Source of the DNA: a virus
UHGV virus genome: UHGV-0122704
Direction: 5' to 3' (one strand)
DNA length: 43,652 nucleotides
A model generated the notes under the pieces. That model ran no database searches and was not told where the DNA came from. It was given only the letters and a program-made list of their open reading frames with translations. This document shows, one piece after another, positions 783-22,600 of the stretch (positions are counted from its first letter, which is position 1; each line of letters starts with the position of its first letter). The position numbers and the translations under genes were made by a program.

Positions 783-1244
783 ATGTCTATGAACATCAAA
801 TATGACACAACATCCCCTAGCTGCTTGGTGTGGCTCAAGGGTAGGCGCGCCGGTGCTCCAGCGGGTACCCGCAACACTCGTGGCTACTGGGTGGTACAGG
901 TATCTGGTAGAAAGATACAGGCACACCGCCTCATCTGGGAACTACACAACGGGCCTATTCCAGACGGATATGTGGTGGACCACATCAACCAAAACCCCGG
1001 TGACAACAGATTAGAGAACCTGCGCTTAGCTACGGTTAGCGAAAACAACTGTAACGCACGCAGGTCTAAGCGGGAACATCCTAGGGGTGTATACTACACT
1101 GGCACCTGCTGGCGCGGGGAGTTCTGGAAGGACGGTAAGCGTTACATGAAGAAGCACAGCTCCTACGAAGTTATCTGCAAGTGGGTACTAGAGAAACGTC
1201 AAGAGCAACACAAGGCCTTCACCCCGGGGCAGGTGTATATCTGA
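783..1244 (+). CDS. HNH homing endonuclease (HNH_3-type with AP2-like C-terminal domain)
   Basis: ATG 783 preceded by GAGGA. Motif HRLIWELHNGPIPDGYVVDHINQNPGDNRLENLRLATVSENN is a textbook phage HNH_3 signature; C-terminal GVYYTGTCWRGEFWKDGKRY resembles an AP2 DNA-binding domain. Confidence 0.85.
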   Translation: MSMNIKYDTTSPSCLVWLKGRRAGAPAGTRNTRGYWVVQVSGRKIQAHRLIWELHNGPIPDGYVVDHINQNPGDNRLENLRLATVSENNCNARRSKREHPRGVYYTGTCWRGEFWKDGKRYMKKHSSYEVICKWVLEKRQEQHKAFTPGQVYI

Positions 1245-1662: not shown

Positions 1663-1858
1663 GCTGTAGTGCGTCACGGTGCTATCCCTAGTATGCACTA
1701 GGCTATCCACTGGCTATCCCTAGTGCTTTACATTGTGCCGATTATATGCTACGCTGCGCGCTCCCCACTAGGGCGCACATCCTCACCCAACACTATCCCG
1801 GCGCTATCTCTTTGCTATCCCCTTGCTCTTACTTTCATTCGAAAGCTGTCATGAAATG

Positions 1859-1875
1859 ATGTTACAGGAGTAGGA
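1859..1875 (+). promoter_or_regulatory. Copy A of conserved motif ATGTTACAGGAGTAGGA (17-mer core)
   Basis: Exact 17-mer also present at 22584..22600 and 34492..34508; lies in the non-coding terminal region about 190 bp upstream of HNH gene 2067. Confidence 0.6.
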
Positions 1876-2733: not shown

Positions 2734-3083
2734 AGATAGCGAACAAGGCAAGGATAACCACTCTAGGGCGCAAGGATGTGTGTCCCGTCGGATTAGGCTA
2801 GACGTTAAAAATGACCTCTTAAAGGTTTAGTAGTAAGCTGGTTTGCGGGGAGGCCCAGTACCTTGACTGGTACGTTGACGACCCACCCCTAGACAATCAG
2901 TTAAAGAGTAAACGTGCCGGACGTTATCACCGGGGTTCTGAGACAAACCACACTGTCGAGGCGAGAGCAGCTCGCTCCTCTGAATCGAGGGAACAAGGCG
3001 CGGAGTGTATCCCGCAAAGAGCATATAACATAGCGCAGCAGTAACAAGGTTGCGCTAGATTATGTTCTCTGAGAGGTAAGAGT

Positions 3084-3281
3084 ATGCGCAAATCAAAGCG
3101 TTTAGCATTACGGCGGAATATGCAATTATCACTGAATCCCACCGACGACGTGCCGCTTACTGTGAAGCCTAGCAAACAAGGGTTGAGCAGTGAGCACAGG
3201 GTGAGGGGAAAGCAAAAACAAAAGGGCAGTAGCAGGCAGCCATCTGGATGGCCTACTGTTAACTCCCAATTTGGTCGATAA
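3084..3281 (+). CDS. Hypothetical early protein, small and strongly basic (65 aa)
   Basis: ATG 3084 preceded by GAGAGG; first ORF after the early promoter cluster; Lys/Arg-rich. Confidence 0.5.
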   Translation: MRKSKRLALRRNMQLSLNPTDDVPLTVKPSKQGLSSEHRVRGKQKQKGSSRQPSGWPTVNSQFGR

Positions 3282-3287
3282 TTACAG

Positions 3288-3317
3288 CCTATAGCATCCT
3301 ACGGGGTGCTATGTGAA
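3288..3317 (+). promoter_or_regulatory. Conserved intergenic stem-loop motif, copy 1 (CCTATAGCATCCTACGGGGTGCTATGTGAA)
   Basis: 27/30 identical to 4004..4033. Stem ATAGCA/TGCTAT plus CC/GG around a 4-nt loop; no T-run follows. Confidence 0.6.
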
Positions 3318-3352
3318 GTAATTACCTAAACAACCAATCAAAGAGGTGCATT

Positions 3353-3928
3353 ATGACCCATTCAACTGGTAAAGTATTCAAGCTCACCGCTGCGGGCAGC
3401 ATTCGTAAAGCGCTGGGCGACGTAGTGGAAGCAAAGCGCAACATCACTATTAGCGCGCTCTTCCACGGCCTGATTAGCAGCAACGTTTCCTGGGCTATGG
3501 ATATGCAGCGCAGCGATGCCGCGGACTTCGATATGGTGCTGCGTACGCTGCTGCCTATCAAGTTCAACAAGGAGTCCGGCAAATACGAATTCAACGCGAA
3601 GAAGTGCTATGCGTCTGCTGAGAAGCTGGGCATCGAACTGGACACTATGCGTCTGGACTATAAACAAGCTGACAAGCAGGAGCGCGAAGTAATTGTAGCC
3701 AGCTTCTATAGCTCCTGTATGGCCCTGTACGCTGCCGAAGCGGAGCAGGTAAAGAATGACGCGCTGGATGCCGATGCAGTGCGCTTGCAAGCGCTGGGGC
3801 GCGTTAAAAACGCTATCAAGAAGGCAAAAGAGACTGGTGTAAGCGACGCTGACCTCGTGTATATGCTGGTATCGCAGGGCGTGGATGTACGCGCTGTACT
3901 GGACGCAACTTTGAAGGCGGCGGCATGA
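3353..3928 (+). CDS. Hypothetical early protein (191 aa) with host-optimal codon bias, probably abundantly expressed
   Basis: ATG 3353 preceded by AAGAGG. Strong preference for CTG/CGT/AAC/TTC/ATC codons like the capsid gene. No recognisable domain. Confidence 0.7.
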   Translation: MTHSTGKVFKLTAAGSIRKALGDVVEAKRNITISALFHGLISSNVSWAMDMQRSDAADFDMVLRTLLPIKFNKESGKYEFNAKKCYASAEKLGIELDTMRLDYKQADKQEREVIVASFYSSCMALYAAEAEQVKNDALDADAVRLQALGRVKNAIKKAKETGVSDADLVYMLVSQGVDVRAVLDATLKAAA

Positions 3929-3996
3929 GCGTAGAATTCATGGTTATCATAACGGCGGTGGTGCTGTTATTTGTAGTGGCGGGCGAATATCTCTAG
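3925..3996 (+). CDS. Possible small hydrophobic peptide (23 aa, MSVEFMVIITAVVLLFVVAGEYL)
   Basis: ATGA start/stop overlap with the upstream gene; single predicted TM helix. Too short to support strongly. Confidence 0.3.
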   Translation: MSVEFMVIITAVVLLFVVAGEYL

Positions 3997-4003
3997 TAGC
4001 AAG

Positions 4004-4033
4004 CCTATAGCGTCCTGCGGGGCGCTATGTGAA
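4004..4033 (+). promoter_or_regulatory. Conserved intergenic stem-loop motif, copy 2 (CCTATAGCGTCCTGCGGGGCGCTATGTGAA)
   Basis: Stem ATAGCG/CGCTAT carries a compensatory A-T to G-C change relative to copy 1; lies just upstream of gene 4046. Confidence 0.6.
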
Positions 4034-4045
4034 TGCAACTGGCGT

Positions 4046-4279
4046 ATGGGGTTTCATATGAAAGCAATACTGGTCTATCCGGGCCATGAACTCTGGCCCG
4101 TGTGGTGCAATCGGGTATACGCAGAATACAACTACACTGTGGTCATATTCTCTGACAAAGACACTAATCAGGAATCCCCTTTAGAATTTGTGGATACCTA
4201 CACCGAAATGGCTGCCCGCACTGTGCTGGACGCCGTGAATCTTGGCATTATCAACGACTGGAGACAACTTTATGGTTAA
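4046..4279 (+). CDS. Hypothetical early protein (77 aa; alternative start ATG 4058)
   Basis: ORF in the early gene array; weak RBS, start uncertain. Confidence 0.45.
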   Translation: MGFHMKAILVYPGHELWPVWCNRVYAEYNYTVVIFSDKDTNQESPLEFVDTYTEMAARTVLDAVNLGIINDWRQLYG

Positions 4280-4535
4280 TGTATTCAACATCATTGTGAC
4301 CAGCGCTATGCTGGTGCTGGGCAACGACATAAACAACCCAATCCCATACTGCACTGTGCAGTTGCAGCAACCGGCAACGCAGGAGCCGCAGCCGCGCCCT
4401 GAGTACGACCTATTTGAAGACCCCGAGGGTGGTTGCAAAGAGCTGGGCGCACGTATCCTTGCGGCGGTGCAGGAGCAGTACCAGGACGCTGCGGTAACGC
4501 TCACGGTGGATGGTAAGAGCAATAACGAAATTTGA
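4272..4535 (+). CDS. Hypothetical early protein (87 aa) with hydrophobic N-terminus
   Basis: ATG 4272 preceded by GGAGAC and overlapping the upstream stop; N-terminal VFNIIVTSAMLVLG could be a TM helix. Confidence 0.45.
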   Translation: MVNVFNIIVTSAMLVLGNDINNPIPYCTVQLQQPATQEPQPRPEYDLFEDPEGGCKELGARILAAVQEQYQDAAVTLTVDGKSNNEI

Positions 4536-4544
4536 GGTGGGGGC

Positions 4545-4724
4545 ATGCACGGAAAGAATCCTGAAACGCTGCTGATGCGTAAGCAGCAACCAACAATCGA
4601 CGGGCTGGCGCGGGAGTACAACGCGAAGGCAGCGCTGCGCCAGCACTATGAGAAACAAGCAAAGCGCCTGGGTATGACCCTGCGCGGCTACTGCTTCCGG
4701 TTTAATGTGCGGGGTGTAGTATGA
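4545..4724 (+). CDS. Hypothetical early protein (59 aa)
   Basis: ATG 4545 preceded by GAGGTGGGGG; ATGA overlap with the next gene suggests translational coupling. Confidence 0.45.
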   Translation: MHGKNPETLLMRKQQPTIDGLAREYNAKAALRQHYEKQAKRLGMTLRGYCFRFNVRGVV

Positions 4725-4939
4725 GCAAGCAGGACATTTATGACGTATATAAGCGCCCTAATGGGTTTCTTTACCGGGTACCTCTATTTAGTCCACTGCA
4801 CGCCCTCGCAGAATTCTATGCAGAGGAGACTAGACTGTGGTTGCCGTCCAGTCACACAGTTGGCGGGGTGGTAATGCTAAGTTGTAGCACCCTTGTGGCC
4901 CGCAACGTGGTATTCAAGGATAGCGCATGCTCACAGTAG
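4721..4939 (+). CDS. Hypothetical early protein (72 aa)
   Basis: ATG 4721 in an ATGA overlap with the upstream ORF. Confidence 0.45.
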   Translation: MSKQDIYDVYKRPNGFLYRVPLFSPLHALAEFYAEETRLWLPSSHTVGGVVMLSCSTLVARNVVFKDSACSQ

Positions 4940-5271
4940 ACGAAACAGCGCTGCTGTGCTGGCGTCTGCTGGAAACGCAGGGCAAGTGCGGTTGCACTTG
5001 GGAAACATTCAAAGAGGTTCCTAATGAACTCAAGCAAATCGTGCCAGTTGAGCGTCGATTACTCCGAGTTAGAAAAGAGGATATTGGCACTGTTCTCACA
5101 ACCTATCGAGAGTACACTGAGTCTGCCGCGCGGAAGCTGCAAGAGCACATTGCATTCGATGTGGTTGCAGCACTACGGCGGAATGGATACCGCGGAGCTT
5201 TTAAGCAATTTAGAGCCGCAGTCCGCGCCTATTATAAGCAGCAACAACTCTCCGCGTGGTACGCACGCTGA
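4927..5271 (+). CDS. Hypothetical early protein (114 aa)
   Basis: ATG 4927 preceded by AAGGA; basic, helix-rich sequence. Confidence 0.45.
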   Translation: MLTVDETALLCWRLLETQGKCGCTWETFKEVPNELKQIVPVERRLLRVRKEDIGTVLTTYREYTESAARKLQEHIAFDVVAALRRNGYRGAFKQFRAAVRAYYKQQQLSAWYAR

Positions 5272-5311
5272 ACTCTTAGTGCATGACGAAGTTCTATTAA
5301 CTCGGGAGCAA

Positions 5312-6994
5312 ATGAAAATGCAAGAAACTAACACAGCACCTATCGAATGGAAAGTAGTGTTACCGGAAGGTGCAAACGCACTGCCGATTAAAGAATCAAT
5401 GTATTCCAGCGGTGATTACTGGACCCCGTTCCAGGACTTGCAAATGCAAGGGGAGGACCATCCCCACACTGAGGGTCCGCTGCAGGTGCTTATGGGTCTC
5501 CGCACTGTCAGTGCGCACACTCCAGGCTTAGAGGTGACTATAGGCGGGGCACTGCACCCAGAGTATCGCGAATCAACGATGACGCTCGGCCCGTTGCAAA
5601 AGGTGGACCTGTACCGGTCCGGAACTTTCTGCGAACTCTTTGAACCGGTGCGAATCACCATAGACAGCAAGTTCTGGGAACGCCGCCGCGACTTCTATGA
5701 GGGCGAGGATGTAGTGGTTGAGCGCGTAGTTGCTTGCGTCGAAGAATTCACAGGTTACAAGGTGCACAAGCAGGCCGTGCAGTTATTTGAGCGCATCATG
5801 CTTGCACCAGAAGAGCAGCAGCGCCGCTTATACACTGGCTACGATTACGGCCGCCACACCCGCGATGGCAACTTAGCTGCGCTGCTCATGAAGTTGCACG
5901 GCTTCGTAGTGTCTAGATTCGCCGTGCCTTTGGGCTTTGGTTTCCGCAACGGCGAACCTATCGTGATGCTGGGGCAGCCGCGGATGCACAAGGACTTCGC
6001 AGCAGTTACTGAGTACCGCTGCGTAGAGATGCGCGTAGGTAAGTGGCTCGCTAACTACTACGGAAATGGTGTGGACTTCCGCGATGCTATCGAAGACCTC
6101 AAGGCTATGAACGTAGACCCTACAACGTACCTGTGCAAGACCGAGCAGGAATGGTACGACGCCTACGAGAATGGCCCGGGTAGCTGCATGAGCGGGTACT
6201 CATTTGAGCATAGCTCTGTGCGGACGTACGCTACCACCAGCCACGGGTTGCCGGATAATGGGCTGCGCCTGTTCATCCAGTACACCGGGGAGCTGTTCGG
6301 CGACGATTTCGAAGTGCAGGCACGGGCAATCGTTAACACAGAAACTAACGAGTACGTCCGCGCTTACGGCAACGCTGCGGATGCAATCCTGCGGGGGCAT
6401 GGGTACACCAAAAACATTGAATGTCTCGAAGGGGTAATGCTGGCGCGAATACCGCACCCAACATACAACGGCGCAGTGCTGATGCCATACCTAGATAGCA
6501 GCCAGTGCGGCGTAGATGAGTATGGGGATGATGCCTTTGTAATCCGTGATGCTTATGAGTACGAGGCACAAGACTCAGAAGGATACATCTACGTAGGCAC
6601 TGAGTCTGCTCGGTGCTGCTGCTGTGAATGTCGCTACTCTGTAGATGACATGCAGGAGACCGCAGATGGTGATATGGTCTGCGACGGCTGCGTAGAAGAA
6701 GGGGATTTTGTGTACGTAGTTGGGCGTGATGGTCTGCATAATCGCTGGAGCTGCACCTGGTCTGATTACCACGACGCCTATGTATACGACGAGGACATAG
6801 AGCGCTGCGAAGTAGAGGGTGTAGTGCACGACCAAGAGGAACTGGTGTTTGCACAGGACCGGCAAGTGCTTATTGAGCACGCAGAAGAACACCCAGTGCA
6901 CGGGTTAATTCTCACTGAGCATGCAGCTGATTGCTTGGGAGAGAAGTACCTGGGCAACGATGAAGATGAAGAAGAAGCAGAGGAGGCAGCTTAA
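5312..6994 (+). CDS. Large hypothetical early protein (~560 aa) with a Cys cluster and an acidic C-terminal tail
   Basis: Track ORF 5024..6994 trimmed to ATG 5312 (GGGAG RBS), which avoids overlapping 4927..5271. Contains CCCCECRYSVDD...CDGC and ends NDEDEEEAEEAA. No family recognised. Confidence 0.6.
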   Translation: MKMQETNTAPIEWKVVLPEGANALPIKESMYSSGDYWTPFQDLQMQGEDHPHTEGPLQVLMGLRTVSAHTPGLEVTIGGALHPEYRESTMTLGPLQKVDLYRSGTFCELFEPVRITIDSKFWERRRDFYEGEDVVVERVVACVEEFTGYKVHKQAVQLFERIMLAPEEQQRRLYTGYDYGRHTRDGNLAALLMKLHGFVVSRFAVPLGFGFRNGEPIVMLGQPRMHKDFAAVTEYRCVEMRVGKWLANYYGNGVDFRDAIEDLKAMNVDPTTYLCKTEQEWYDAYENGPGSCMSGYSFEHSSVRTYATTSHGLPDNGLRLFIQYTGELFGDDFEVQARAIVNTETNEYVRAYGNAADAILRGHGYTKNIECLEGVMLARIPHPTYNGAVLMPYLDSSQCGVDEYGDDAFVIRDAYEYEAQDSEGYIYVGTESARCCCCECRYSVDDMQETADGDMVCDGCVEEGDFVYVVGRDGLHNRWSCTWSDYHDAYVYDEDIERCEVEGVVHDQEELVFAQDRQVLIEHAEEHPVHGLILTEHAADCLGEKYLGNDEDEEEAEEAA

Positions 6995-8055
6995 TGTTCT
7001 TGAATCCGCACGGGATTGATATGCAGCTGCTCTTGCAGATACTGCAAACGCACCGGCCTAGCTGGGGTAGCACTAAGTGGTTCGAGCCGCTGCTTATGCA
7101 GTCGCTACAGGCGCTGGGTAGTGGTATGCACTACGTAAAGGACAAGCACGGGAACTACTTCGTGCTGGTGGGGGACTCAGAGCAAAGTGACGTAGCGTTT
7201 ACGTCTCATCTCGACACAGTGGCACGACCAACCAGCGCTGCGCCGGACGTCGGCTGCACTAACAAGGGCGTGCTGTTCGTAAAGAATCCGCAACAAGCTG
7301 ACTGCTTGGGCGCCGACTGCGGCGCCGGTATCTACCTGATGCTGGAGATGCTGCGGCGCGGCGTGCACGGACGCTACTGCTTCTTCGTGGATGAAGAGGT
7401 AGGCTGCGAGGGTAGCGCTGCATCGGTCAAGGATGACTCTGGATTTTGGACTGGGGTCAAGGCGATGATTAGCTTCGACCGCCGCGGCGACGGTATCATT
7501 ACGCATCAAAGGTATATGCGCTGCTGCTCTGACACCTTTGCCAAGACCCTAGCAGAGCGCCTGGGACGCACGGAGCAGCACTTGCAGAAGGGTGTTTATA
7601 CTGACTCGGCTGAGTTCGTTGGCATCATTCCTGAGTGCACCAACGTCGGTGTAGGGTACATGCACGAGCACACCCCGGATGAGGTGCTGGACCTGAACAT
7701 ACTGGGCCAGGTGCTTGAGCGGGTACTACAAGACGGCACGTTCTCGCACCTCCCTATTGAGCGGGACCCGGCAGTAGCAGAGCCAGACCTATGCCAGTGG
7801 CTCGCTGCATCGACGCTCAGTTTACGGCAGCCGTGGGATATGCCGCCGGACGAGGACCCGCAGTTACTGGCCGCGTTCCGGGAAGTATCGCAGCTTTCTA
7901 AACAACAACTGGTTAGCTGGGTACAGGAGAATCCAGAGAAGGCGGCGGAGTACATAATGGTGTTCTCCGATTACGGCTTTAAAGAAGAACTGATTGAACT
8001 AGGCACCCGAGTCGTAGAAGACTGGGGCGGATACGATAATATTGTGGAGGGTTGA
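6994..8055 (+). CDS. Putative Zn-metallopeptidase-like protein (M20/M28/M42-like ligand pattern)
   Basis: Ordered candidate metal ligands HLD (TSHLDTV), D (GADCGAG), EE (FVDEEVG), D (FDRRGDG), H (MHEHT) match the co-catalytic zinc exopeptidase pattern. Motif-level inference only. Confidence 0.5.
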   Translation: MFLNPHGIDMQLLLQILQTHRPSWGSTKWFEPLLMQSLQALGSGMHYVKDKHGNYFVLVGDSEQSDVAFTSHLDTVARPTSAAPDVGCTNKGVLFVKNPQQADCLGADCGAGIYLMLEMLRRGVHGRYCFFVDEEVGCEGSAASVKDDSGFWTGVKAMISFDRRGDGIITHQRYMRCCSDTFAKTLAERLGRTEQHLQKGVYTDSAEFVGIIPECTNVGVGYMHEHTPDEVLDLNILGQVLERVLQDGTFSHLPIERDPAVAEPDLCQWLAASTLSLRQPWDMPPDEDPQLLAAFREVSQLSKQQLVSWVQENPEKAAEYIMVFSDYGFKEELIELGTRVVEDWGGYDNIVEG

Positions 8056-8057
8056 TT

Positions 8058-8504
8058 ATGTCTAAACTTTTTAAAGTAGGTGATAAGGTTCAGCGCATCA
8101 ATAAGATTGAAGGTAAGACCGTGCGCGGCGAGATAGTCACTAAGGGGCCTGGCCTCTATATAGACATCAAGCTAACCGAAGGCGCAGGGATTCATTATGC
8201 CGGGGATATCTATGGCGGCTCTGCCGACTTCTGGCAGCTAATCGAGGAGGCGGACGAGCTGCCACCGGTTCCGTCTAGTGTAGCATATTTAAACACTAAA
8301 CGAGACCCAGGAAACGACCAGCGGCTGGTATTAGAAAAGGACAGCGAGACTAACGAAGGACTACTATACATCGGAATAGTGCCTAGAAAAGGCAGCACCC
8401 GGGCAGAGCGAGAGATTGGTATTAATATGAGCCCCGATTCAGCCCTGCAGTTGGCACATGACATTCGTCGAATGGCTATGAAAGTTAAGCGAGAGATTCA
8501 GTAA
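8058..8504 (+). CDS. Hypothetical protein (148 aa)
   Basis: ATG 8058 preceded by GGAGGG; track start TTG 8052 is a less likely alternative. Confidence 0.5.
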   Translation: MSKLFKVGDKVQRINKIEGKTVRGEIVTKGPGLYIDIKLTEGAGIHYAGDIYGGSADFWQLIEEADELPPVPSSVAYLNTKRDPGNDQRLVLEKDSETNEGLLYIGIVPRKGSTRAEREIGINMSPDSALQLAHDIRRMAMKVKREIQ

Positions 8505-9289
8505 TGGACCAGCCCTGGCTTAGAGCGTGCAAGCGCCTGGCCGTTGGGCAGAGGGCGCGCTTTCGGTGCTGCGGCAGGGACGCCGCCGGGGTGCTCTACA
8601 ATAACCCGGATGCCTGGGAATATTATTGCCACCGCTGCAAACAGGTGGGCAAGGAGCACAAGCAGTACCAGCGCATACAGTTACAGGAAGAGCCGAGGGT
8701 GCAGCCCGCTGCACCTGCAGATGCAATTTGCATTAGCCAAGCGCCTGCGGAAACGCAGAGTTTTATTTACGGATTCCTGACCACAAAGGGAATCATGCCT
8801 GAAATGGTGGAGGATGCAGAATGGAGCAAAGAGAAACAGCGGATAATCTTCCGTGTCGGAAGCGCTGCTCTGGGCCGTGCAGTGCATGCTCGGCAGCAAC
8901 CGAAGTGGGTAATGTACGGCCAGCCAATAGCTTTCGCTGTCGCGGCACCTGCCGTAGCACCGGCTGTAGCTGCGGCCGCGCCTCTAAAGGTCGTGCTCAC
9001 CGAGGACTTACTCTCAGCCCGGAAGATACAGCACGCAGTTACGAGTTACAGTGCATTGAACGTGCAGGCTATAGCTATGCTGGGTACACGCTTGCCCACG
9101 CCGCTGAGGGCTTGGCTGATTCAGAATCGCCCGGAAGTGATTCTGATGCTGGATAATGACCCGGCTGGACATGCTGGGGTAGCAGCGGCGCGCCGAGCAC
9201 TGCGTCCGTTCATGCAGTGCCGTGAGCATTACTTCGCTGCGGACCCGAAGGATGCAGAAATCAAAGAGATTCTGGAGGCTTTACAATGA
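8504..9289 (+). CDS. DNA primase (zinc-ribbon + TOPRIM)
   Basis: N-terminal Cys cluster RFRCCGRD...YYCHRCKQ; TOPRIM-like VILMLDNDPAGHAG with an upstream acidic residue; sits directly before the helicase. Confidence 0.8.
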   Translation: MDQPWLRACKRLAVGQRARFRCCGRDAAGVLYNNPDAWEYYCHRCKQVGKEHKQYQRIQLQEEPRVQPAAPADAICISQAPAETQSFIYGFLTTKGIMPEMVEDAEWSKEKQRIIFRVGSAALGRAVHARQQPKWVMYGQPIAFAVAAPAVAPAVAAAAPLKVVLTEDLLSARKIQHAVTSYSALNVQAIAMLGTRLPTPLRAWLIQNRPEVILMLDNDPAGHAGVAAARRALRPFMQCREHYFAADPKDAEIKEILEALQ

Positions 9290-9480: not shown

Positions 9481-10761
9481 TTGGACCTAATAGTAGTTAA
9501 GGCAATGTGCACGCAGAAGGTATGGAACCGACTGCGTGAACAGATACCCAAATCCATGCTAGCGCCGGACACAGCTAACCTACTAGACTGGGTGGGGTTG
9601 TACTGGAACACGTACCCGGAGCACCAGGAGGTTCAGTGGGATGCAATGCAGAGCATGCTAAACCTCCGGGCGGGGCACCTGTCCCGGGAAGAGCGGGTAA
9701 TCATGGACGAGCTTATGCGGGGAGTACAAGCCGTGCCACAGGATTCTGTGGTGGGGATTGTCCAGACCCTGAACGAGCTGGCCTACAGCGGGGAGGTAGC
9801 AGCGCTGACGCAGCGCTATCAAGACGGCGAGGAGATTGATTACCTGCTGGAAATGAAGCACCTACAGCGCAAGTACGGTGATGGCGCTGCGGTGCATGAT
9901 TCGCTGCTTGAATGGGAGAGCGGTAGTGTTGACGAGATACTTGCCGCGACTGATGAGAGCGGCGGTCTTAAACTGGGCGTGTTCGAGCAACTCGCTAGCA
10001 ACATCCGAGGTCTACGTGGCGGGGACTGCATCGCAGTGGCTGCTCCTGTGGACTCTGGTAAAACTAGCCTGCTTGCTGCTATTGCTGTGGACTTTGCTGA
10101 GCAGATGCAGCAGCAGCCGGAAGTATACGGGGACCGCCCGATTCTCTGGCTGGTTAACGAGGGTCCGGCGACGCGTACAGTGCCGAGGGTATATCAAGCG
10201 GCGCTGCACTGGACTCTGGCGGAGATTAAGGACCGGCACAGTAAGCAAGAGTTCGTGCCAGCCTACCTCAAGAAAGTAGGCAGGGCTGACCGGATTCGCG
10301 TTAAGGCTGCGCACTCCTTGACGATGGCGCAGATATCCACGCTCATGGAGGAGATGCGCCCCGCGGTAATCATCATTGATATGGTGGCGAATATCCGTGG
10401 CGGTACTATGGAGAGTGAGCACCAGAACCTAGAGGCGAAATGGCAGGAGCTGCGCATCCTTGGGTGCGAGAACGACTGCGCTATCGTAGGGACTATGCAG
10501 CTTTCACTCGAAGGTTACAACATGTTGTTCCCGCCGCTCACCGCTATGAAGCAGAGCAAGATTGGTGTACAGGGTGCCTTGGACTTGGCGATTATGATGG
10601 GATGCTTGGACAGGAACGAGCAGCCGCACATGCAAAACGTCCGTGGTATCAGTACTCCGAAGAACAAGATGGCACTGTCTGGTAAAGAGTCGCTACTGCA
10701 ATTCGAGGTGGGATTCGAGCCGGGTCGTTGCCGCTTTGACGAGGGCCAGATTAACCGGTGA
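9481..10761 (+). CDS. Replicative DNA helicase (DnaB-like / T7 gp4 helicase-domain-like)
   Basis: Walker A AAPVDSGKTSLL and Walker B-like AVIIIDMV. TTG start at 9481 sits 5 nt after a strong AAGGAGG; an in-frame ATG at 9506 is the alternative. Confidence 0.85.
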   Translation: MDLIVVKAMCTQKVWNRLREQIPKSMLAPDTANLLDWVGLYWNTYPEHQEVQWDAMQSMLNLRAGHLSREERVIMDELMRGVQAVPQDSVVGIVQTLNELAYSGEVAALTQRYQDGEEIDYLLEMKHLQRKYGDGAAVHDSLLEWESGSVDEILAATDESGGLKLGVFEQLASNIRGLRGGDCIAVAAPVDSGKTSLLAAIAVDFAEQMQQQPEVYGDRPILWLVNEGPATRTVPRVYQAALHWTLAEIKDRHSKQEFVPAYLKKVGRADRIRVKAAHSLTMAQISTLMEEMRPAVIIIDMVANIRGGTMESEHQNLEAKWQELRILGCENDCAIVGTMQLSLEGYNMLFPPLTAMKQSKIGVQGALDLAIMMGCLDRNEQPHMQNVRGISTPKNKMALSGKESLLQFEVGFEPGRCRFDEGQINR

Positions 10762-10813: not shown

Positions 10814-10969
10814 ATGCTTAAACCGTCAGACATTAACTACCTCGACGAAGAGGTAATCAAGGCGTACGCTGCGTCTGCAGGTACTTTCCGTAAACGATTC
10901 GCGCTGGACAGCAGCCAGCTGATTGTGCATCTAGCTATCAATAAAGCTCGGAGGGCTAAGTGGAAATGA
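10814..10969 (+). CDS. Hypothetical small protein (51 aa)
   Basis: ATG 10814 preceded by a near-perfect AGGAGG; its stop overlaps the DNA polymerase start in ATGA. Confidence 0.5.
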   Translation: MLKPSDINYLDEEVIKAYAASAGTFRKRFALDSSQLIVHLAINKARRAKWK

Positions 10970-13377
10970 CAACCAGCATAATGCACCTTGACCTGGAGAC
11001 GGAGAACCATGAATATTACGGCTCTAAAGCAAGCCCATACTGCCCTGACAACTATGTTGTTGAGTCCGCATGGCGTATCGACACGACACAGGCTGACGGT
11101 ACTACCACTGTTGGCGCGACTCAATCGGTGCGCTTCAATTCAAGAGCTGATTTCTTGGCGGGAAACAGTGCAGCAGAAGGCTGCCGGTGGTTTCATATCC
11201 CCGAGGATTGCTGGCTTATTGTTGCGCACAACGCAGCCTATGAGATTTCTTGGTTTCTCACGTACCAGCGGCAGCAGTTTGAGGCCTTCCTCAAGCGCGG
11301 TGGCAGGGTGTTCTGCACAATGCACGGGGAATACATCGCCTCGGACTTTCAGAGCATGTATCCGTCTCTGGACGAGACGGCTCCTAAGTACGGTGGTACG
11401 CACAAAGTAGACGGGGTTAAGATTCTATGGGAGCAGGGTGTGTTAACCTCCCAGATCGACCCGATACTGCTGCATGACTACCTGGTTAACGGGGACATCC
11501 CGAACACGGCCCTGTGCTTCTACGGCCAGTGCGCTACGTTCGCCCAGCGCAATCAGATGCAGTACGTGTGGGAACGTATGGATGCCTTGCTAGCTTGGGC
11601 GTACTGCGAGTGGTTCGGCCTGTTCGTGAATATGCCAATTGCACGCAAGAACCAGGAGGAGCAGGAGCAGCGCATCCGTGAGATTAAGCAGGAACTGCAG
11701 CAGTACATCCCGAAGGACTTGCCGGAGACGCTGGACTTCAATTTCGGGTCGGACTTTCATATGTCTGCACTGGTGTACGGCGGGCCTATAAAGTACCGCA
11801 AGAAGGTCCCCTATGACCCTCCGCAGTACGTCAAGGCCGACTACTATAAGTACGAGGACGAAGATGGTGCGCACACCTATATACCTGTACACGACACGCA
11901 CATGCAAGAACTTCAAACGGAAGGCGGATGGTGGCGTGTAGTGACATATCGTGCGGGTAAGAACAAGGGGCTCCCTAAAGTATTCCGCCTCGATACCGAG
12001 GAAGAGAAACTTAAATGGGAAGACGACCTTTACTTCTGCCCGGGCCTAGTGAACATCCAGGAGCTTCCGGAAGTTATCCGGGAGAAGTACGCAGAGCGCG
12101 GGGAGTTCCGACAGGCGCGCACCCTGCAGGATGGCACCCCTGTGTATAGCACCAGCACTGATGCAATGGAGGCGCTGGCTCGCCAAGGGTTCGAGTTCTG
12201 TAAGTTGGTGAACGAACTGGCGGCGCTGGAGAAGGATACCGGCACTTACTATTTGCGAGAAGTACTGGACGCAGGAGGTAATGTAAAAGAGCGGAAGGGG
12301 ATGCTGCAGTATGTAATCCCGGAGCGTCCCGATGGTTCCGGCATCATTCACCACCGGCTGAATACTTGCGCCACCGTAACCGGGCGCTTGAGTAGCTCTA
12401 ACCCGAACCTGCAGAACCTACCCCGCCCGGATGAGGATGGCGACGGTGTGGCTAAATCCAAGGTGAAGCAGGTGTTCACCAGTAGATTCGGGGACAACGG
12501 ACGTATCACTGAGGTTGACTACTCGGCACTGGAAGTGGTTATGTCCTGTGTACACACGGGTGACAAGAAACTGCTGGGACTGCTGCAGAGTGGTACGGAT
12601 ATGCACTGTTACCGCCTAGCTTTCCGCGAGGGATTACCGTATGAAGAAGTATATGAGCGCTGCCACAACAAGAAGCACGAGCTGCATCCGCTTTGGAAGG
12701 CAATGCGTACAGGTATTAAGGCTCCTAGCTTTGCAGCCCAGTATGGCGCTACGGCTAAGGGGATTGCGTTTGCTACTGGATGTACGGTGGAATTTGCACA
12801 GGCTTTCTTGGACAACGAGGCTGCGCTGTTCCCGCAAACAATTGGCTTCCGCGCTGTTGTCAAGGAAGAGGTAGAACGTACCGGTGCGGAGGGGCGCATG
12901 TACCGGGAGCAGGCTGACGACGGCAGCTACCGAATCTACCGCATTGGGACGTGGACCAGCCCAGCCGGTGCCCGCTACAGTTTCCGTCAGAAAGAGCAGT
13001 GGAAAGAGGTTGTGCCTGGGCAGCGTAAGCAGAAGGTAATGGACTACAAGGAAACAGAGATGGCTAACTACTGGTGCCAGGGGGAAGCATTCTTCCTGAT
13101 GGCGGTAGCCGCCGGTATGGTTCTGCGTGCACTCCTGGCCCGTGACTGGTTCGACAATCAGGTGTGCCTGATTACGAACGTGCACGATGCGTTGTATCTG
13201 GACAGCGCCAACCCGGAGGTTGGACGTGAGGCGAGCCTGCTGGTTAAGCAGTGCATGGAGGATGCACCTAAGCGTATTCACCAGCTCTGGCCTAACTACG
13301 GCATCATTGGTGAGGTCCCGTTCCCAGCAGAGGCTGAGATGGGTACGAGTATGTACAGTAAGGAGAAGGTAGAATGA
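10966..13377 (+). CDS. DNA polymerase (family A, T7 gp5-like)
   Basis: N-terminal 3'-5' exo motif MHLDLETEN; polymerase motifs RLNTCATVTGRLSSSNPNLQNLP, K...FAAQYGA and VHDALYLD. ATG 10966 preferred over the track GTG 10960. Confidence 0.95.
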   Translation: MTTSIMHLDLETENHEYYGSKASPYCPDNYVVESAWRIDTTQADGTTTVGATQSVRFNSRADFLAGNSAAEGCRWFHIPEDCWLIVAHNAAYEISWFLTYQRQQFEAFLKRGGRVFCTMHGEYIASDFQSMYPSLDETAPKYGGTHKVDGVKILWEQGVLTSQIDPILLHDYLVNGDIPNTALCFYGQCATFAQRNQMQYVWERMDALLAWAYCEWFGLFVNMPIARKNQEEQEQRIREIKQELQQYIPKDLPETLDFNFGSDFHMSALVYGGPIKYRKKVPYDPPQYVKADYYKYEDEDGAHTYIPVHDTHMQELQTEGGWWRVVTYRAGKNKGLPKVFRLDTEEEKLKWEDDLYFCPGLVNIQELPEVIREKYAERGEFRQARTLQDGTPVYSTSTDAMEALARQGFEFCKLVNELAALEKDTGTYYLREVLDAGGNVKERKGMLQYVIPERPDGSGIIHHRLNTCATVTGRLSSSNPNLQNLPRPDEDGDGVAKSKVKQVFTSRFGDNGRITEVDYSALEVVMSCVHTGDKKLLGLLQSGTDMHCYRLAFREGLPYEEVYERCHNKKHELHPLWKAMRTGIKAPSFAAQYGATAKGIAFATGCTVEFAQAFLDNEAALFPQTIGFRAVVKEEVERTGAEGRMYREQADDGSYRIYRIGTWTSPAGARYSFRQKEQWKEVVPGQRKQKVMDYKETEMANYWCQGEAFFLMAVAAGMVLRALLARDWFDNQVCLITNVHDALYLDSANPEVGREASLLVKQCMEDAPKRIHQLWPNYGIIGEVPFPAEAEMGTSMYSKEKVE

Positions 13378-15720: not shown

Positions 15721-16509
15721 ATGACTACGAATGTATTGGCATCCCTGAACGCTCTGGTAGACGCAGCAATCGGAACCCAAGATGTAGATATGCGGGAAAC
15801 CGCACAGGGCGGCGCATATGAGGACGTGCTGCTGCCGAAGGGTGAATACTACGGCTACTTCACCGAGTACGTAGAAATCGGTAAGCGCCTGCCGACTAAG
15901 GGTGGCAAGCCGACCGGTAAGCCCGCAGTAGCTAACGTACGCATCGGCATTGTAGTGTTCGGTCCTAACGGCGAAGTGAAGCGTATCCGCCCGTTCCCGA
16001 TGGCTATCAGTAACTTTGAGCGCGCAGGCTTCAAGAAGTTCTTCGACAAGCTCAACTACGACAATAGCATTAAGCATGCAGCACAGCGTCTGGGCCAGGC
16101 CTTCACCTTCCCGATTGATGAGCACACCAGCGCCGCGGGCAAGAAGTCCAACATCGTGGACCTGTCCGGTATCCGCCCGATTCCGAAATTCGACCCGAAC
16201 ACTGGCGAGCCTATCAAGATGCCTGCCATGGATGCCTCTGAGATTAAGCTGTTCCTGTGGAACAACCCAACCAAAGAGACCTGGGATAGCCTGCACATCG
16301 AAGGCACCTTCGACGATGGTAAGAGCAAGAACTGGATTCAGGAGGATATGTACAAGGCTGTAGACTTCCCTGGCAGTGCTCTGGATATTCTGCTGAACGC
16401 TGGCTCGGTTCCTAGTCCGGCAGCTATGCAGGCACCCGCAGCCCCGGCTGCACCAGTGGCCCCTGCAGCCCCTGTGGCGCCAGCAGCACCCGCCGCACCT
16501 CAAGCCTAA
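15721..16509 (+). CDS. Hypothetical protein with Pro/Ala-rich C-terminal repeat; host-like codon bias (possibly an abundant DNA-binding protein)
   Basis: RBS GAGGA; C-terminus APAAPAAPVAPAAPVAPAAPAAPQA; codon usage resembles the capsid gene. Confidence 0.7.
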   Translation: MTTNVLASLNALVDAAIGTQDVDMRETAQGGAYEDVLLPKGEYYGYFTEYVEIGKRLPTKGGKPTGKPAVANVRIGIVVFGPNGEVKRIRPFPMAISNFERAGFKKFFDKLNYDNSIKHAAQRLGQAFTFPIDEHTSAAGKKSNIVDLSGIRPIPKFDPNTGEPIKMPAMDASEIKLFLWNNPTKETWDSLHIEGTFDDGKSKNWIQEDMYKAVDFPGSALDILLNAGSVPSPAAMQAPAAPAAPVAPAAPVAPAAPAAPQA

Positions 16510-22581: not shown

Positions 22582-22600
22582 TAATGTTACAGGAGTAGGA
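22582..22600 (+). promoter_or_regulatory. Copy B of conserved 19-bp motif TAATGTTACAGGAGTAGGA, abutting the start codon of gene 22601
   Basis: Exact 19-mer shared with 34490..34508 and 17-mer shared with 1859..1875. Sits between RNAP and the first late gene; its AGGAG doubles as the RBS. Confidence 0.6.

What the first reader, a model, noticed from the sequence alone, without database searches (positions are those of the whole stretch)
3084..8504. Early block of uncharacterised genes: candidate host-takeover or anti-defence module
About 12 ORFs follow the early promoters and none has a recognisable replication or structural role. They include a small strongly basic protein (3084..3281), a 191-aa protein with codon bias as strong as the capsid gene (3353..3928), several proteins under 100 aa, a ~560-aa protein with a CCCCEC...CDGC cluster and a poly-acidic tail (5312..6994), and a protein with a zinc-exopeptidase-like ligand pattern (6994..8055). 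In T7-like phages this position is where anti-restriction and host-shutoff functions reside, so this is the most likely place for a new anti-defence or host-manipulation function. None can be assigned from sequence alone.
Basis: inference. Interest (0 to 1): 0.7.

Follow-up and report, generated by a model that had tools for sequence, protein, structure and literature searches.

The report
Early gene block of a Klebsiella podophage
This is the standard early operon of a KP34-like (Drulisvirus) Klebsiella phage: a few fast-evolving small genes that could manipulate the host, plus a conserved, widespread two-gene enzyme module (unknown Cys/zinc-ribbon protein and zinc exopeptidase) that travels with the replication genes and looks like core phage biology, not strain-specific anti-defence.

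Summary
The ORFs are real and lie where stated: ten genes, all matching PHROG families. The window is a Drulisvirus genome, and 251 phage records share this block. No protein matches a Pfam, NCBIfam or PADLOC family apart from DUF7267 and a weak M28 hit.

The block has two layers.
- **Variable genes:** the 65-aa basic protein (13 of 55 relatives), the 72-aa protein (median 58% identity) and the 150-aa protein, which has a hypervariable N-terminal domain. The 72-aa protein's fHe-Kpn01 homologue gp10 is toxic in E. coli.
- **Conserved genes:** the 191-aa, 59-aa and 114-aa proteins, the ~560-aa protein and the peptidase.

The host-takeover reading fits only the variable genes; no anti-defence function is shown. 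The commonly annotated 656-aa start is wrong: the gene starts at 5312 or 5318. Two RNase III-like hairpins bracket the 191-aa gene.

The parts
1857..1872 (+). KP34-type phage RNA polymerase strong promoter (S2 variant, TGATGTTACAGGAGTA), upstream of the whole early block
   Evidence: Exact match. Three copies in the window against 0.06 expected by chance. The promoter sequence was defined experimentally for KP34 in PMC6834552.
2636..2664 (+). Sigma-70-like early promoter candidate (TTGACA-17-TAGATT). Another TTGACA-17-TAACTT site lies at about 2705-2733.
   Evidence: Consensus scan, 10 of 12 matches, and the sequence read. The number of promoter-like sites in the region is not above chance, so this is a candidate only.
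3084..3281 (+). 65-aa strongly basic protein (pI 12), first early gene. A variable gene.
   Evidence: phrog_32970, E=1e-42. pI. This allele is present in only 13 of 55 related loci. Only the C-terminal 35 aa are shared with fHe-Kpn01 gp02. It has the lowest Fop in the genome, 0.34.
3286..3317 (+). Conserved 32-nt hairpin element, copy 1, upstream of the 191-aa gene. Candidate RNase III processing or mRNA-stabilising site.
   Evidence: Two copies in the window, none expected by chance. As RNA it folds to -20.6 kcal/mol, z = -4.5, with a 10-bp upper stem, an internal loop and a 7-bp lower stem. KP34 RNA polymerase did not transcribe a DNA fragment carrying this element in vitro (PMC6834552).
3353..3928 (+). 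191-aa conserved, probably highly expressed early protein. Helical, unknown function, ends in Ala-Ala-Ala-COOH.
4002..4033 (+). Hairpin element, copy 2, downstream of the 191-aa gene
   Evidence: One mismatch to the pattern. Relative to copy 1 it carries a compensatory A-U to G-C change in the upper stem, and its lower stem is built from unrelated sequence. It folds to -23.8 kcal/mol, z = -3.0.
4058..4279 (+). 73-aa acidic early protein (the ORF could also start at 4046)
   Evidence: phrog_7657 matches residues 5-77 of the 4046 form. 85% identical to fHe-Kpn01 gp06, which starts at the second ATG. Present in 39 of 55 loci.
4272..4535 (+). 87-aa acidic early protein (pI 4.05)
   Evidence: phrog_7036 matches residues 11-97 of the TTG form, so the start is ATG 4272. 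The 'DinI superfamily' and 'Cro/CI repressor' labels in GenBank records were not reproduced by Pfam or PDB searches.
4545..4724 (+). 59-aa basic protein, DUF7267
   Evidence: PF23929, E=1.6e-25. Present in 55 of 55 loci, median 91.5% identity.
4721..4939 (+). 72-aa fast-evolving protein, homologue of the E. coli-toxic fHe-Kpn01 gp10
   Evidence: phrog_7916. 58% identity to gp10 over 66 aa. Toxicity of gp10 is shown in PMC7291057. Median identity is 58% among 44 of 55 loci, with a conserved C-terminal ARNVVFKD motif.
4927..5271 (+). 114-aa conserved basic protein immediately upstream of the large gene
   Evidence: phrog_6167. Present in 55 of 55 loci, median 86% identity. Homologues sit at the same position in Pectobacterium and Vibrio phages. 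Substitutions fall on the third codon position of this frame.
5312..6994 (+). ~560-aa protein: variable N-terminal region, conserved core (about aa 235-420, invariant S291-C292-M293, R338, Y352, Y393, D395), Cys4 zinc ribbon (435, 438, 457, 460), beta-hairpin repeats and an acidic tail ending Ala-Ala. The true start is ATG 5312 or 5318.
6994..8055 (+). 353-aa M28-like di-zinc exopeptidase (clan MH) with a family-specific C-terminal extension of about 100 aa. Its start overlaps the stop of the upstream gene (TAATG).
   Evidence: PF04389, 23.0 bits against a 21.3-bit cutoff. phrog_4191 'peptidase'. Ligand alignment to PepT. Invariant H72, D108, E134, E135, D162 and H226. A GAGGAGG Shine-Dalgarno sequence lies inside the upstream gene's tail codons.
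8052..8504 (+). 150-aa protein with a hypervariable N-terminal domain (about aa 15-65) and a conserved C-terminal domain. It is always present between the peptidase and the primase.
   Evidence: phrog_4317. 273 of 304 phage records are below 60% identity, although the flanking genes are about 95% identical. Per-residue conservation profile.

Best explanation
The block is the early, pre-replication operon of a Drulisvirus (KP34-like) Klebsiella podophage. I infer that the host RNA polymerase transcribes it. It is a composite of two parts.

**(1) Small early genes.** Three of them are variable or fast-evolving: the 65-aa basic protein, the 72-aa homologue of toxic gp10, and the 150-aa protein with a hypervariable N-terminal domain. 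These are the plausible host-interaction genes.

**(2) A conserved core.** This comprises the 191-aa, 59-aa (DUF7267) and 114-aa proteins, the ~560-aa protein and the peptidase. Its centre is a translationally coupled gene pair. The first partner is a ~560-aa protein built from an uncharacterised Cys-bearing alpha/beta core, a Cys4 zinc ribbon, beta-hairpin repeats and an acidic tail. The second is an M28-like di-zinc exopeptidase.

**Proposed mechanism.** The two proteins are made in fixed proportion and act together in the infected cytoplasm, as an enzyme or as an enzyme plus a specificity subunit. They work on a protein, peptide or amino-acyl substrate at the onset of phage DNA replication. 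This is a core phage function inherited with the replication module, not a strain-specific counter-defence.

**Shown:** gene reality, conservation layers, adjacency and stop/start overlap, an intact metal site, the true start codon, and toxicity of a homologue of the 72-aa protein.

**Inferred:** complex formation, catalytic activity, the substrate class, and the timing and source of transcription.
For: - **Identity of the phage.** 251 phage records match, nearly all Klebsiella phages; the annotated ones read are classified as Drulisvirus.
- **All ORFs are conserved families**.
- **Two conservation layers** across 55 related loci, with per-residue profiles.
- **Hypervariability of the 150-aa gene** between genes that are about 95% conserved.
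- **Toxic homologue.** gp10 of fHe-Kpn01 is toxic in E. coli and is 58% identical to the 72-aa protein.
- **Pair conservation.** The order large protein, peptidase, (small gene), primase, helicase is kept in Drulisvirus, Maculvirus and Phimunavirus. The peptidase lies immediately downstream of the large-protein homologue in 4 of 4 distant metagenomic contigs. Among 40 informative IMG/VR loci with a distant peptidase homologue, 32 carry the core-domain gene and 30 have it immediately upstream.
- **Coupling.** The stop and start overlap in the window (TAATG). An SD-like motif lies inside the last 24 nt of the upstream gene in 18 of 27 loci.
- **Neighbours.** In 18 non-redundant distant loci the commonest neighbours are Toprim primase (11 ORFs), ThyX (10) and DnaB helicase (6).
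- **Intact active site.** The H-D-EE-D-H ligand set is invariant at 31-39% identity.
- **Expression.** gp12, gp13 and gp14 of fHe-Kpn01 were detected by LC-MS/MS.
Against: - No biochemical or genetic data exist for the pair.
- Adjacency and coupling suggest a complex but do not prove one. No fused big-protein/peptidase protein was found among 150 representatives.
- Eight informative peptidase loci, mostly from contigs of 150-464 kb, lack the partner.
- The link to replication genes is by neighbourhood only. In most distant loci the window's own primase and helicase have no detectable homologue within 4 kb.
- Conserved core genes can still be counter-defence genes, as Ocr is in T7-like phages.
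Confidence: 0.5

Rival explanations
1. One reading: the whole block is a host-takeover or anti-defence module. On this view the large acidic-tailed protein and the peptidase disable host defence or host proteins. One GenBank record labels the large protein a DNA mimic.
For: - The block sits in the early region of an Autographiviridae genome.
- A homologue of one gene is toxic.
- Three genes are variable or hypervariable.
- The large protein is acidic (pI 4.55) with a poly-acidic tail. KPPK108.1 annotates its homologue as a 'putative DNA mimic protein'.
- An S-adenosylmethionine lyase family, which I recall as the T3 anti-restriction type, occurs among neighbours in 2 ORFs of the distant loci.
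Against: - There are no hits to PADLOC or to Pfam anti-restriction families.
- AntiDefenseFinder reported anti-defence genes only for other genera in the KlebPhaCol phages (PMC12629751).
- The pair is conserved across genera and in distant phages with an invariant catalytic site, unlike typical accessory anti-defence genes.
- The large protein is a folded multi-domain protein with invariant polar residues, not an Ocr-like helical DNA mimic.
- Part of its acidic tail doubles as the ribosome-binding site of the next gene.
- Apart from gp10, no small early gene was among the toxic candidates in the E. coli screen.
Confidence: 0.25
2. The large protein, the peptidase and the 150-aa protein are packaged in the virion and ejected with the DNA, as their fHe-Kpn01 annotation as 'putative structural proteins' implies. 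They would then act before any phage gene is expressed.
For: LC-MS/MS of purified fHe-Kpn01 particles detected gp12, gp13 and gp14 but not the primase, helicase or DNA polymerase.
Against: - The same preparation also contained exonuclease, endonuclease VII, a nucleotide-kinase-like protein, RNA polymerase, a metallophosphoesterase and the scaffolding protein. It therefore carried over abundant intracellular proteins.
- The genes sit in the early operon, far from the morphogenesis genes.
[quoted passage not shown] That study did not use mass spectrometry (PMC11440229).
Confidence: 0.1
3. The ~560-aa protein is a non-enzymatic replisome accessory or scaffold, SSB-like in logic. A zinc ribbon plus an acidic C-terminal tail with an aliphatic last residue would dock onto the polymerase or helicase, as the tails of T7 gp2.5, T7 gp4 and E. 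coli SSB do (from my own knowledge).
For: - It lies directly upstream of the primase, helicase and polymerase genes, and primase and helicase genes are frequent neighbours in distant loci.
- No SSB was recognised among the middle-region genes I scanned.
- The tail is acidic with a terminal Ala, Val, Leu or Ile in most homologues.
- It was detectable by MS.
Against: - The invariant Ser-Cys-Met, Arg, Tyr and Asp residues look catalytic or ligand-binding.
- This model does not explain the obligatory coupling to a metallopeptidase.
- The acidic tail is confounded by the embedded Shine-Dalgarno sequence.
- Another abundant unknown protein (15721-16509) could be the SSB.
Confidence: 0.12

Closest known systems
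Early regions of KP34-like phages: Klebsiella phage fHe-Kpn01 gp02-gp14, KP34 and SU503
   Same: Same gene order. Identities to the fHe-Kpn01 proteins range from 51% to 96%. 251 phage records share the block. The homologue of the 72-aa protein, gp10, is toxic in E. coli (PMC7291057).
   Different: This phage lacks homologues of gp04, gp05, gp08 and gp15. It carries a different allele of the first gene and divergent alleles of the 72-aa and 150-aa genes (58% and 56% identity). Two HNH endonuclease genes are inserted upstream.
Peptidase family M28 (clan MH co-catalytic zinc exopeptidases such as Aeromonas aminopeptidase) and the related M20 family (PepT, DapE)
   Same: The H-x-D, D, E-E, D, H ligand and catalytic pattern is present and invariant. 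The Pfam M28 hit is above its gathering score. The fHe-Kpn01 authors report an HHpred match to DapE at 99.8% probability.
   Different: Sequence similarity is very weak (23 bits). There is no M20-type lid or dimerisation domain: 64 residues separate D162 from H226. It has a family-specific C-terminal extension of about 100 aa with an invariant Trp. It is cytoplasmic and phage-encoded, and is usually paired with an upstream partner gene.
T7 class I (early) genes and their RNase III-processed mRNAs (from my own knowledge of T7)
   Same: A left-end operon of small host-directed proteins transcribed by the host RNA polymerase. Hairpins with an upper stem, internal loop and lower stem lie between genes.
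   Different: No homology to Ocr, gp0.7 or gp2. The phage RNA polymerase gene lies at 20107-22575 rather than in the early region. RNase III cleavage has not been shown.
GNAT-fold acyl- and aminoacyl-transferases (FemA, FemX, ATE1, N-acetyltransferases)
   Same: These are the only structural neighbours of the large protein's model. The order of secondary-structure elements from 271 to 390 (beta-alpha-alpha-beta-beta-beta-alpha-beta-beta) resembles the GNAT order.

Membership tests
Peptidase M28 / clan MH (gene 6994-8055) | Five metal ligands (His, Asp, Glu, Asp, His) plus a catalytic Glu adjacent to the ligand Glu | tested here: met
   H72, D108, E135, D162 and H226, with E134, are invariant in 7 homologues at 31-39% identity. 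They align to the PepT ligand motifs.
Peptidase M28 / clan MH (gene 6994-8055) | Pfam model score above the gathering threshold | tested here: met
   PF04389 scores 23.0 bits against a 21.3-bit cutoff, covering residues 58-167 only. This is marginal.
Peptidase M28 / clan MH (gene 6994-8055) | Exopeptidase activity | not testable with these tools
   Requires an enzyme assay.
fHe-Kpn01 gp10 toxic-protein family (gene 4721-4939) | Sequence homology to gp10 | tested here: met
   58% identity over 66 aa, E=1e-23. Same PHROG, 7916.
fHe-Kpn01 gp10 toxic-protein family (gene 4721-4939) | Growth inhibition when expressed in bacteria | not testable with these tools
   Shown only for gp10 itself (PMC7291057). 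This allele differs at 42% of positions.
DUF7267 (gene 4545-4724) | Pfam model above threshold | tested here: met
   PF23929, 89.7 bits against a cutoff of 27.
DinI family (gene 4272-4535; noted in the GenBank record of fHe-Kpn01 gp07) | Detectable similarity to DinI by Pfam or to a solved DinI structure | tested here: not met
   No Pfam hit at E <= 0.1. No DinI chain among the PDB hits at E <= 10.
Ocr/ArdA-type DNA-mimic anti-restriction proteins (large protein annotated 'DNA mimic' in KPPK108.1) | Membership of the Pfam Ocr, ArdA or antirestriction families, or an all-helical DNA-shaped acidic fold | tested here: not met
   No Pfam hit. The model is a mixed alpha/beta multi-domain protein with a zinc ribbon. 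No such structural neighbour was found.
GNAT superfamily (core of the large protein) | GNAT fold with a conserved beta4-alpha3 pyrophosphate-binding motif | tested here: inconclusive
ssrA-like C-terminal ClpX degron (191-aa and 560-aa proteins) | C-terminal Ala-Ala-COOH | tested here: met
   These are the only two of 120 plus-strand ORF segments in the window that end in AA. 34 of 104 representative homologues end in AA, against about 0.5% expected. AA, VA or KA ends are common in the 191-aa family.
ssrA-like C-terminal ClpX degron (191-aa and 560-aa proteins) | ClpXP-dependent degradation | not testable with these tools
   Requires stability assays in clpX mutants.
T7-type RNase III processing sites (3286-3317 and 4002-4033) | Extended hairpin with upper stem, internal loop and lower stem, located between genes | tested here: met
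   Folds of -20.6 and -23.8 kcal/mol, z = -4.5 and -3.0. One compensatory pair change in the upper stem, and lower stems built from unrelated sequence.
T7-type RNase III processing sites (3286-3317 and 4002-4033) | Cleavage by RNase III | not testable with these tools
   No Rfam family matches. Requires 5'/3' end mapping in wild-type and rnc hosts.

The most novel reading that the evidence does not exclude
The large-protein/peptidase pair is a previously unrecognised two-enzyme module, widespread in T7-supergroup podophages, that remodels protein termini. The M28-like exopeptidase would trim target proteins. The partner is weakly GNAT-, FemA- and ATE1-like, with an invariant Ser-Cys. It would either recognise or chemically modify those targets, giving a phage-encoded N-degron-like pathway. 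The conserved Ala-Ala C-termini of the large protein and the 191-aa protein would engage host ClpXP. The outcome would be programmed destruction or timing of host or phage proteins at the switch to replication.
Probability: 0.08. Interest if true: 0.8.

Novelty: new member of a known kind. Interest (0 to 1): 0.4.

Why it matters

What deserves follow-up is narrower.
- **The conserved pair.** A gene pair of unknown function is conserved from Klebsiella, Vibrio and Pectobacterium podophages to marine and metagenomic phages. One partner has an intact di-zinc hydrolase site. The other has no sequence family and no informative structural neighbour. Solving this pair would annotate hundreds of phage genomes used in Klebsiella phage therapy.
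- **The variable genes.** The 72-aa and 150-aa genes are the rational first candidates for host-range or defence-related phenotypes.
- **The start-codon correction.** It affects PHROG 6980 and many GenBank records.

Tried and rejected
- **Family searches.** Pfam, NCBIfam and PADLOC scans of all ten proteins returned only DUF7267 and a weak M28 hit.
- **PDB sequence searches.** I searched with the large protein, the peptidase, and the 191-, 87-, 114- and 150-aa proteins, and with two family profiles. Apart from PepT for the peptidase, the only matches were non-significant (E >= 0.019): zinc-ribbon, KaiC and gp41 hits.
- **GNAT idea.** The topology fits, but the CoA-binding motif is not conserved and no profile supports it. 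I kept it only as a lead.
- **DinI and Cro/CI labels for the 87-aa protein.** Not reproduced.
- **'Virion-associated' label for gp12-14.** Discounted, because the same sample contained RNA polymerase, nucleases and scaffold protein.
- **Long 656-aa start at 5024.** Rejected from the codon-position substitution pattern.
- **SSB hypothesis.** No OB fold was found.
- **Searches that failed.**
  - The search for related loci with the diverse alignment, and with P0150, found nothing.
  - The third homologous-protein search, with the core profile, returned only fragments.
  - Rfam found nothing.
  - Literature searches found no functional study of these genes beyond the fHe-Kpn01 screen.

Full report
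**What the window is.** All genes lie on the plus strand. The order is: small ORFs, primase (8504-9289), helicase (9481-10761), DNA polymerase (10960-13377), nucleases, a single-subunit RNA polymerase (20107-22575), then the structural genes. A megablast of 3000-8600 finds 251 phage records, 232 of them Klebsiella phages, at 80-95% identity. The annotated records I read are classified as Autographiviridae, Slopekvirinae, Drulisvirus. The window is therefore a KP34-like podophage genome, and the finding is its left-end early region.

**Checking the observation.** The ORFs are present as described. I count ten genes, not about twelve. Every one matches a PHROG family with E-values between 1e-25 and 0, and all but the peptidase family are labelled 'unknown function'.
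- The PHROG alignments and the fHe-Kpn01 homologues set two start codons: 4058 rather than 4046, and 4272 rather than the TTG at 4242.
- The 65-aa protein has pI 12. The large protein has pI 4.55, 17 Cys and the tail NDEDEEEAEEAA.
- The 191-aa gene has a strong AAAGAGG ribosome-binding site and a marked codon bias (Fop 0.59, ENC 39.9). It ranks 4th of 26 genes by Fop and has the 4th-lowest ENC. The capsid gene is clearly more biased (0.68 and 35.5), so 'as strong as the capsid gene' is an overstatement.
- Upstream there is one good sigma-70-like site (TTGACA-17-TAGATT, 2636-2664). There is also an exact copy of the experimentally defined KP34 RNA polymerase promoter at 1857-1872.

**The start of the large gene.** PHROG 6980 and many GenBank and metagenome gene calls use a 655-656-aa form starting at 5024. 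That form overlaps the 114-aa ORF (4927-5271) in another frame. I aligned 60 distinct relatives over this stretch.
- Across 5024-5271, substitutions fall on the third codon position of the 4927 frame (0.297, against 0.126 and 0.099). In the long-ORF frame they fall on position 2.
- Across 5272-5311, substitutions are uniform and indels are frequent.
- From 5312 onwards the pattern switches to the third position of the large-gene frame (0.182, against 0.037 and 0.056).

The 114-aa gene is therefore real, and the large gene starts at ATG 5312 or at 5318. The fHe-Kpn01 annotation begins at the residue corresponding to 5318.

**Two evolutionary layers.** I ran tblastn against 55 related loci that have enough upstream sequence. 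Some loci may be too short to reach the leftmost genes.

| Gene | Present in | Median identity |
|---|---|---|
| 65-aa (3084) | 13/55 | 94% |
| 191-aa (3353) | 43/55 | 96% |
| 73-aa (4058) | 39/55 | 90% |
| 87-aa (4272) | 42/55 | 92% |
| 59-aa DUF7267 (4545) | 55/55 | 91.5% |
| 72-aa (4721) | 44/55 | 58% |
| 114-aa (4927) | 55/55 | 86% |
| ~560-aa (5312) | 54/55 | 88% |
| Peptidase (6994) | 54/55 | 95% |
| 150-aa (8052) | 49/55 | 54% |
| Primase (8504), for comparison | 51/55 | 96.5% |

In the whole phage collection, 273 of 304 records with a homologue of the 150-aa protein are below 60% identity. Per-residue profiles show that its residues ~15-65 are hypervariable, while its N-terminal 11 residues and its C-terminal ~85 residues are conserved. 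In the 72-aa protein only a C-terminal ARNVVFKD motif and a few other residues are conserved. fHe-Kpn01 also carries gp04, gp05, gp08 and gp15, which are absent here. Gene content between the 191-aa gene and DUF7267 is therefore polymorphic.

**Experimental knowledge.** Spruit et al. (PMC7291057) screened 22 hypothetical proteins of the Drulisvirus fHe-Kpn01 for toxicity in E. coli. Only gp10, gp22 and gp38 were confirmed toxic. gp10 is the homologue of the 72-aa protein here (58% identity over 66 aa, same PHROG). No other small early gene appeared among the toxic candidates. gp12-14 were left out of the screen because they were detected in particles.

That 'virion-associated' label is weak evidence for packaging. 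The same preparation contained the RNA polymerase, exonuclease, endonuclease VII, a metallophosphoesterase and the scaffolding protein. I read it as evidence of expression. I found no study of anti-defence functions in this genus. AntiDefenseFinder reported such genes only for other genera in the KlebPhaCol phages.

**The conserved pair.** The order large protein, peptidase, (small gene), primase, helicase is kept in Escherichia phage ZH5, Vibrio phage FE11 (Maculvirus) and Pectobacterium phage Nobby (Phimunavirus). Their peptidases match the window's at E = 1e-50 to 1e-57. The 191-aa and 114-aa proteins are also conserved in these phages.
- **Breadth of the family.** An exhaustive HMMER search with the large protein found 282 representatives at E <= 0.001. 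They share a core at about residues 235-475.
- **Distant contexts.** I looked up the genomic context of four distant representatives (about 20-25% identity). In all four, the next gene downstream is a peptidase homologue (E = 1e-32 to 1e-37). In three of the four the stop and start overlap.
- **The reverse test.** I fetched 48 IMG/VR loci carrying distant peptidase homologues (31-45% identity). Of the 40 with at least 1.5 kb upstream, 32 contain the core-domain gene. In 30 of them it lies immediately upstream on the same strand.
- **Exceptions.** Most of the eight loci without a partner come from contigs of 150-464 kb.
- **Neighbours.** In 18 non-redundant distant loci the commonest neighbouring Pfam families are Toprim primase (11 ORFs), ThyX (10), integrase (10) and DnaB helicase (6).

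The pair is thus an old two-gene module of T7-supergroup podophages that usually sits beside replication and nucleotide-metabolism genes.

**The peptidase.** Pfam M28 is just above threshold. PepT (M20) aligns through the ligand motifs. The fHe-Kpn01 authors report an HHpred match to DapE at 99.8% probability. In seven homologues at 31-39% identity, H72, D74, D108, E134, E135, D162, D204 and H226 are invariant. The ligand order H-D-EE-D-H, an Asp as fourth ligand, and only 64 residues between D162 and H226 (so no lid domain) fit the M28 architecture better than M20. That last point is my inference from established family features. The last ~100 residues are specific to this family. I expect an active cytoplasmic di-zinc exopeptidase or deacylase. 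The substrate is unknown.

**The large protein.** The AF2 model, built from 60 diverse homologues, has mean pLDDT 81 and is above 90 for most of residues 270-550.
- Residues 1-190 are poorly predicted and variable in length across the family.
- The core is alpha/beta.
- A Cys4 zinc ribbon follows (C435, C438, C457, C460), then about ten short beta-hairpins and a terminal helix.
- Invariant residues are S291, C292, (M293), R338, Y352, (G353), (P392), Y393 and D395.

**C-terminal signature.** The 191-aa and 560-aa proteins are the only two of 120 plus-strand ORF segments in the window that end in Ala-Ala.
- Among 104 representative homologues of the large protein, 34 end in AA, against about 0.5% expected. 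In 23 further distant homologues, 13 end in Ala.
- The 191-aa family mostly ends in AA, VA or KA.
- From my own knowledge, a terminal Ala-Ala-COOH is the key ClpX determinant of the ssrA tag. A ClpXP-related role is therefore possible but untested.
- Caveat: the Glu codons of the tail (GAGGAGG) are also the Shine-Dalgarno sequence of the coupled peptidase gene. An SD-like motif lies in the last 24 nt of the upstream gene in 18 of 27 loci. Part of the tail's acidity may be an RNA-level constraint.

**Other proteins.** The 191-aa model (pLDDT 89) is helical with a 53-residue helix and a small beta-hairpin. It has no meaningful structural neighbour. The 87-aa protein is not detectably DinI- or Cro-like. 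The 114-aa and 150-aa proteins gave only chance-level hits.

**RNA elements.** A 32-nt element (AGCCTATAGCRYCCTRCGGGGYGCTATGTGAA) occurs twice, at 3286-3317 and 4002-4033, bracketing the 191-aa gene.
- Both copies fold into a 10-bp upper stem, an internal loop and a 7-bp lower stem.
- The two copies differ by a compensatory A-U to G-C change in the upper stem, and their lower stems are built from unrelated sequence. The z-scores are -4.5 and -3.0.
- The element was once proposed as a phage promoter, but a fragment carrying it was not transcribed by KP34 RNA polymerase in vitro.
- Its shape and position resemble T7 early-mRNA RNase III sites (my own knowledge). No Rfam family matches.

**Conclusion.** The region is where host-directed functions would be expected, and the variable genes (3084, 4721, 8052) are reasonable candidates; one of them has a proven toxic homologue. 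More than half of the block by length is a conserved, translationally coupled enzyme-like pair that behaves as core phage equipment linked to the replication module. No anti-defence role is shown for any gene. The block is already present in hundreds of sequenced phages. The novelty lies in recognising the pair, its signatures and the annotation error, not in the block itself.

Noticed in passing
window 5024-5311: The widely used 655-656-aa gene model for the large protein (PHROG 6980 and many GenBank and metagenome gene calls) over-extends the gene by about 96 codons into the 114-aa gene. Codon-position substitution patterns show that only the 4927-5271 frame is coding there.
   Followed up: yes
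window 3286-3317 and 4002-4033: Two copies of a 32-nt hairpin element bracket the 191-aa gene. They differ by a compensatory change, and their lower stems are built from different sequence. They resemble T7 RNase III processing sites. The element was earlier proposed as a phage promoter.
   Followed up: partly
window 3926-3928 and 6989-6991 (C-termini): Only the 191-aa and 560-aa proteins end in Ala-Ala-COOH. The feature is conserved in distant homologues (34 of 104 representatives). It may be an ssrA-like ClpX signal.
   Followed up: partly
window 6975-6996: The Shine-Dalgarno sequence of the peptidase gene (GAGGAGG) is encoded by the Glu codons of the upstream protein's acidic tail, and the stop and start overlap (TAATG). 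An SD-like motif is embedded in the tail in 18 of 27 homologous loci.
   Followed up: yes
window 783-1244 and 2067-2483: Two HNH_3 homing-endonuclease genes are inserted in the left-end region. The second lies between the phage promoter at 1857 and the sigma-70-like promoters.
   Followed up: partly
window 1857-1872, 22582-22597 and 34490-34505: Three exact KP34-type phage RNA polymerase strong promoters. The first lies upstream of the early block, so the phage polymerase may also transcribe the early genes later in infection.
   Followed up: partly
window 15721-16509: A 262-aa protein of unknown function (phrog_862) has the second-highest codon bias in the genome and a Pro/Ala-repeat C-terminus (...PAAPVAPAAPAAPQA). 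Its fHe-Kpn01 counterpart is probably g26, judged from size and position only; g26 was detected by MS. It could be the missing single-strand-binding protein.
   Followed up: no
window about 1595-1665: A direct repeat of about 22 nt (CCATAGTGGGCC[CT]GCCTAGTGC), read by eye in the G+C-rich non-coding stretch near the left end.
   Followed up: no
loci L101, L102, L109, L110, L116, L117, L118, L135: Peptidase homologues (37-45% identity over the catalytic domain), mostly on contigs of 150-464 kb, lack the upstream partner gene. They may form a separate subfamily with a different partner.
   Followed up: no
L003 (fHe-Kpn01) position 7873, inside the primase gene homologous to window 8504-9289: The fHe-Kpn01 paper reports a site-specific nick at this position. 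I did not examine the equivalent site in the window.
   Followed up: no
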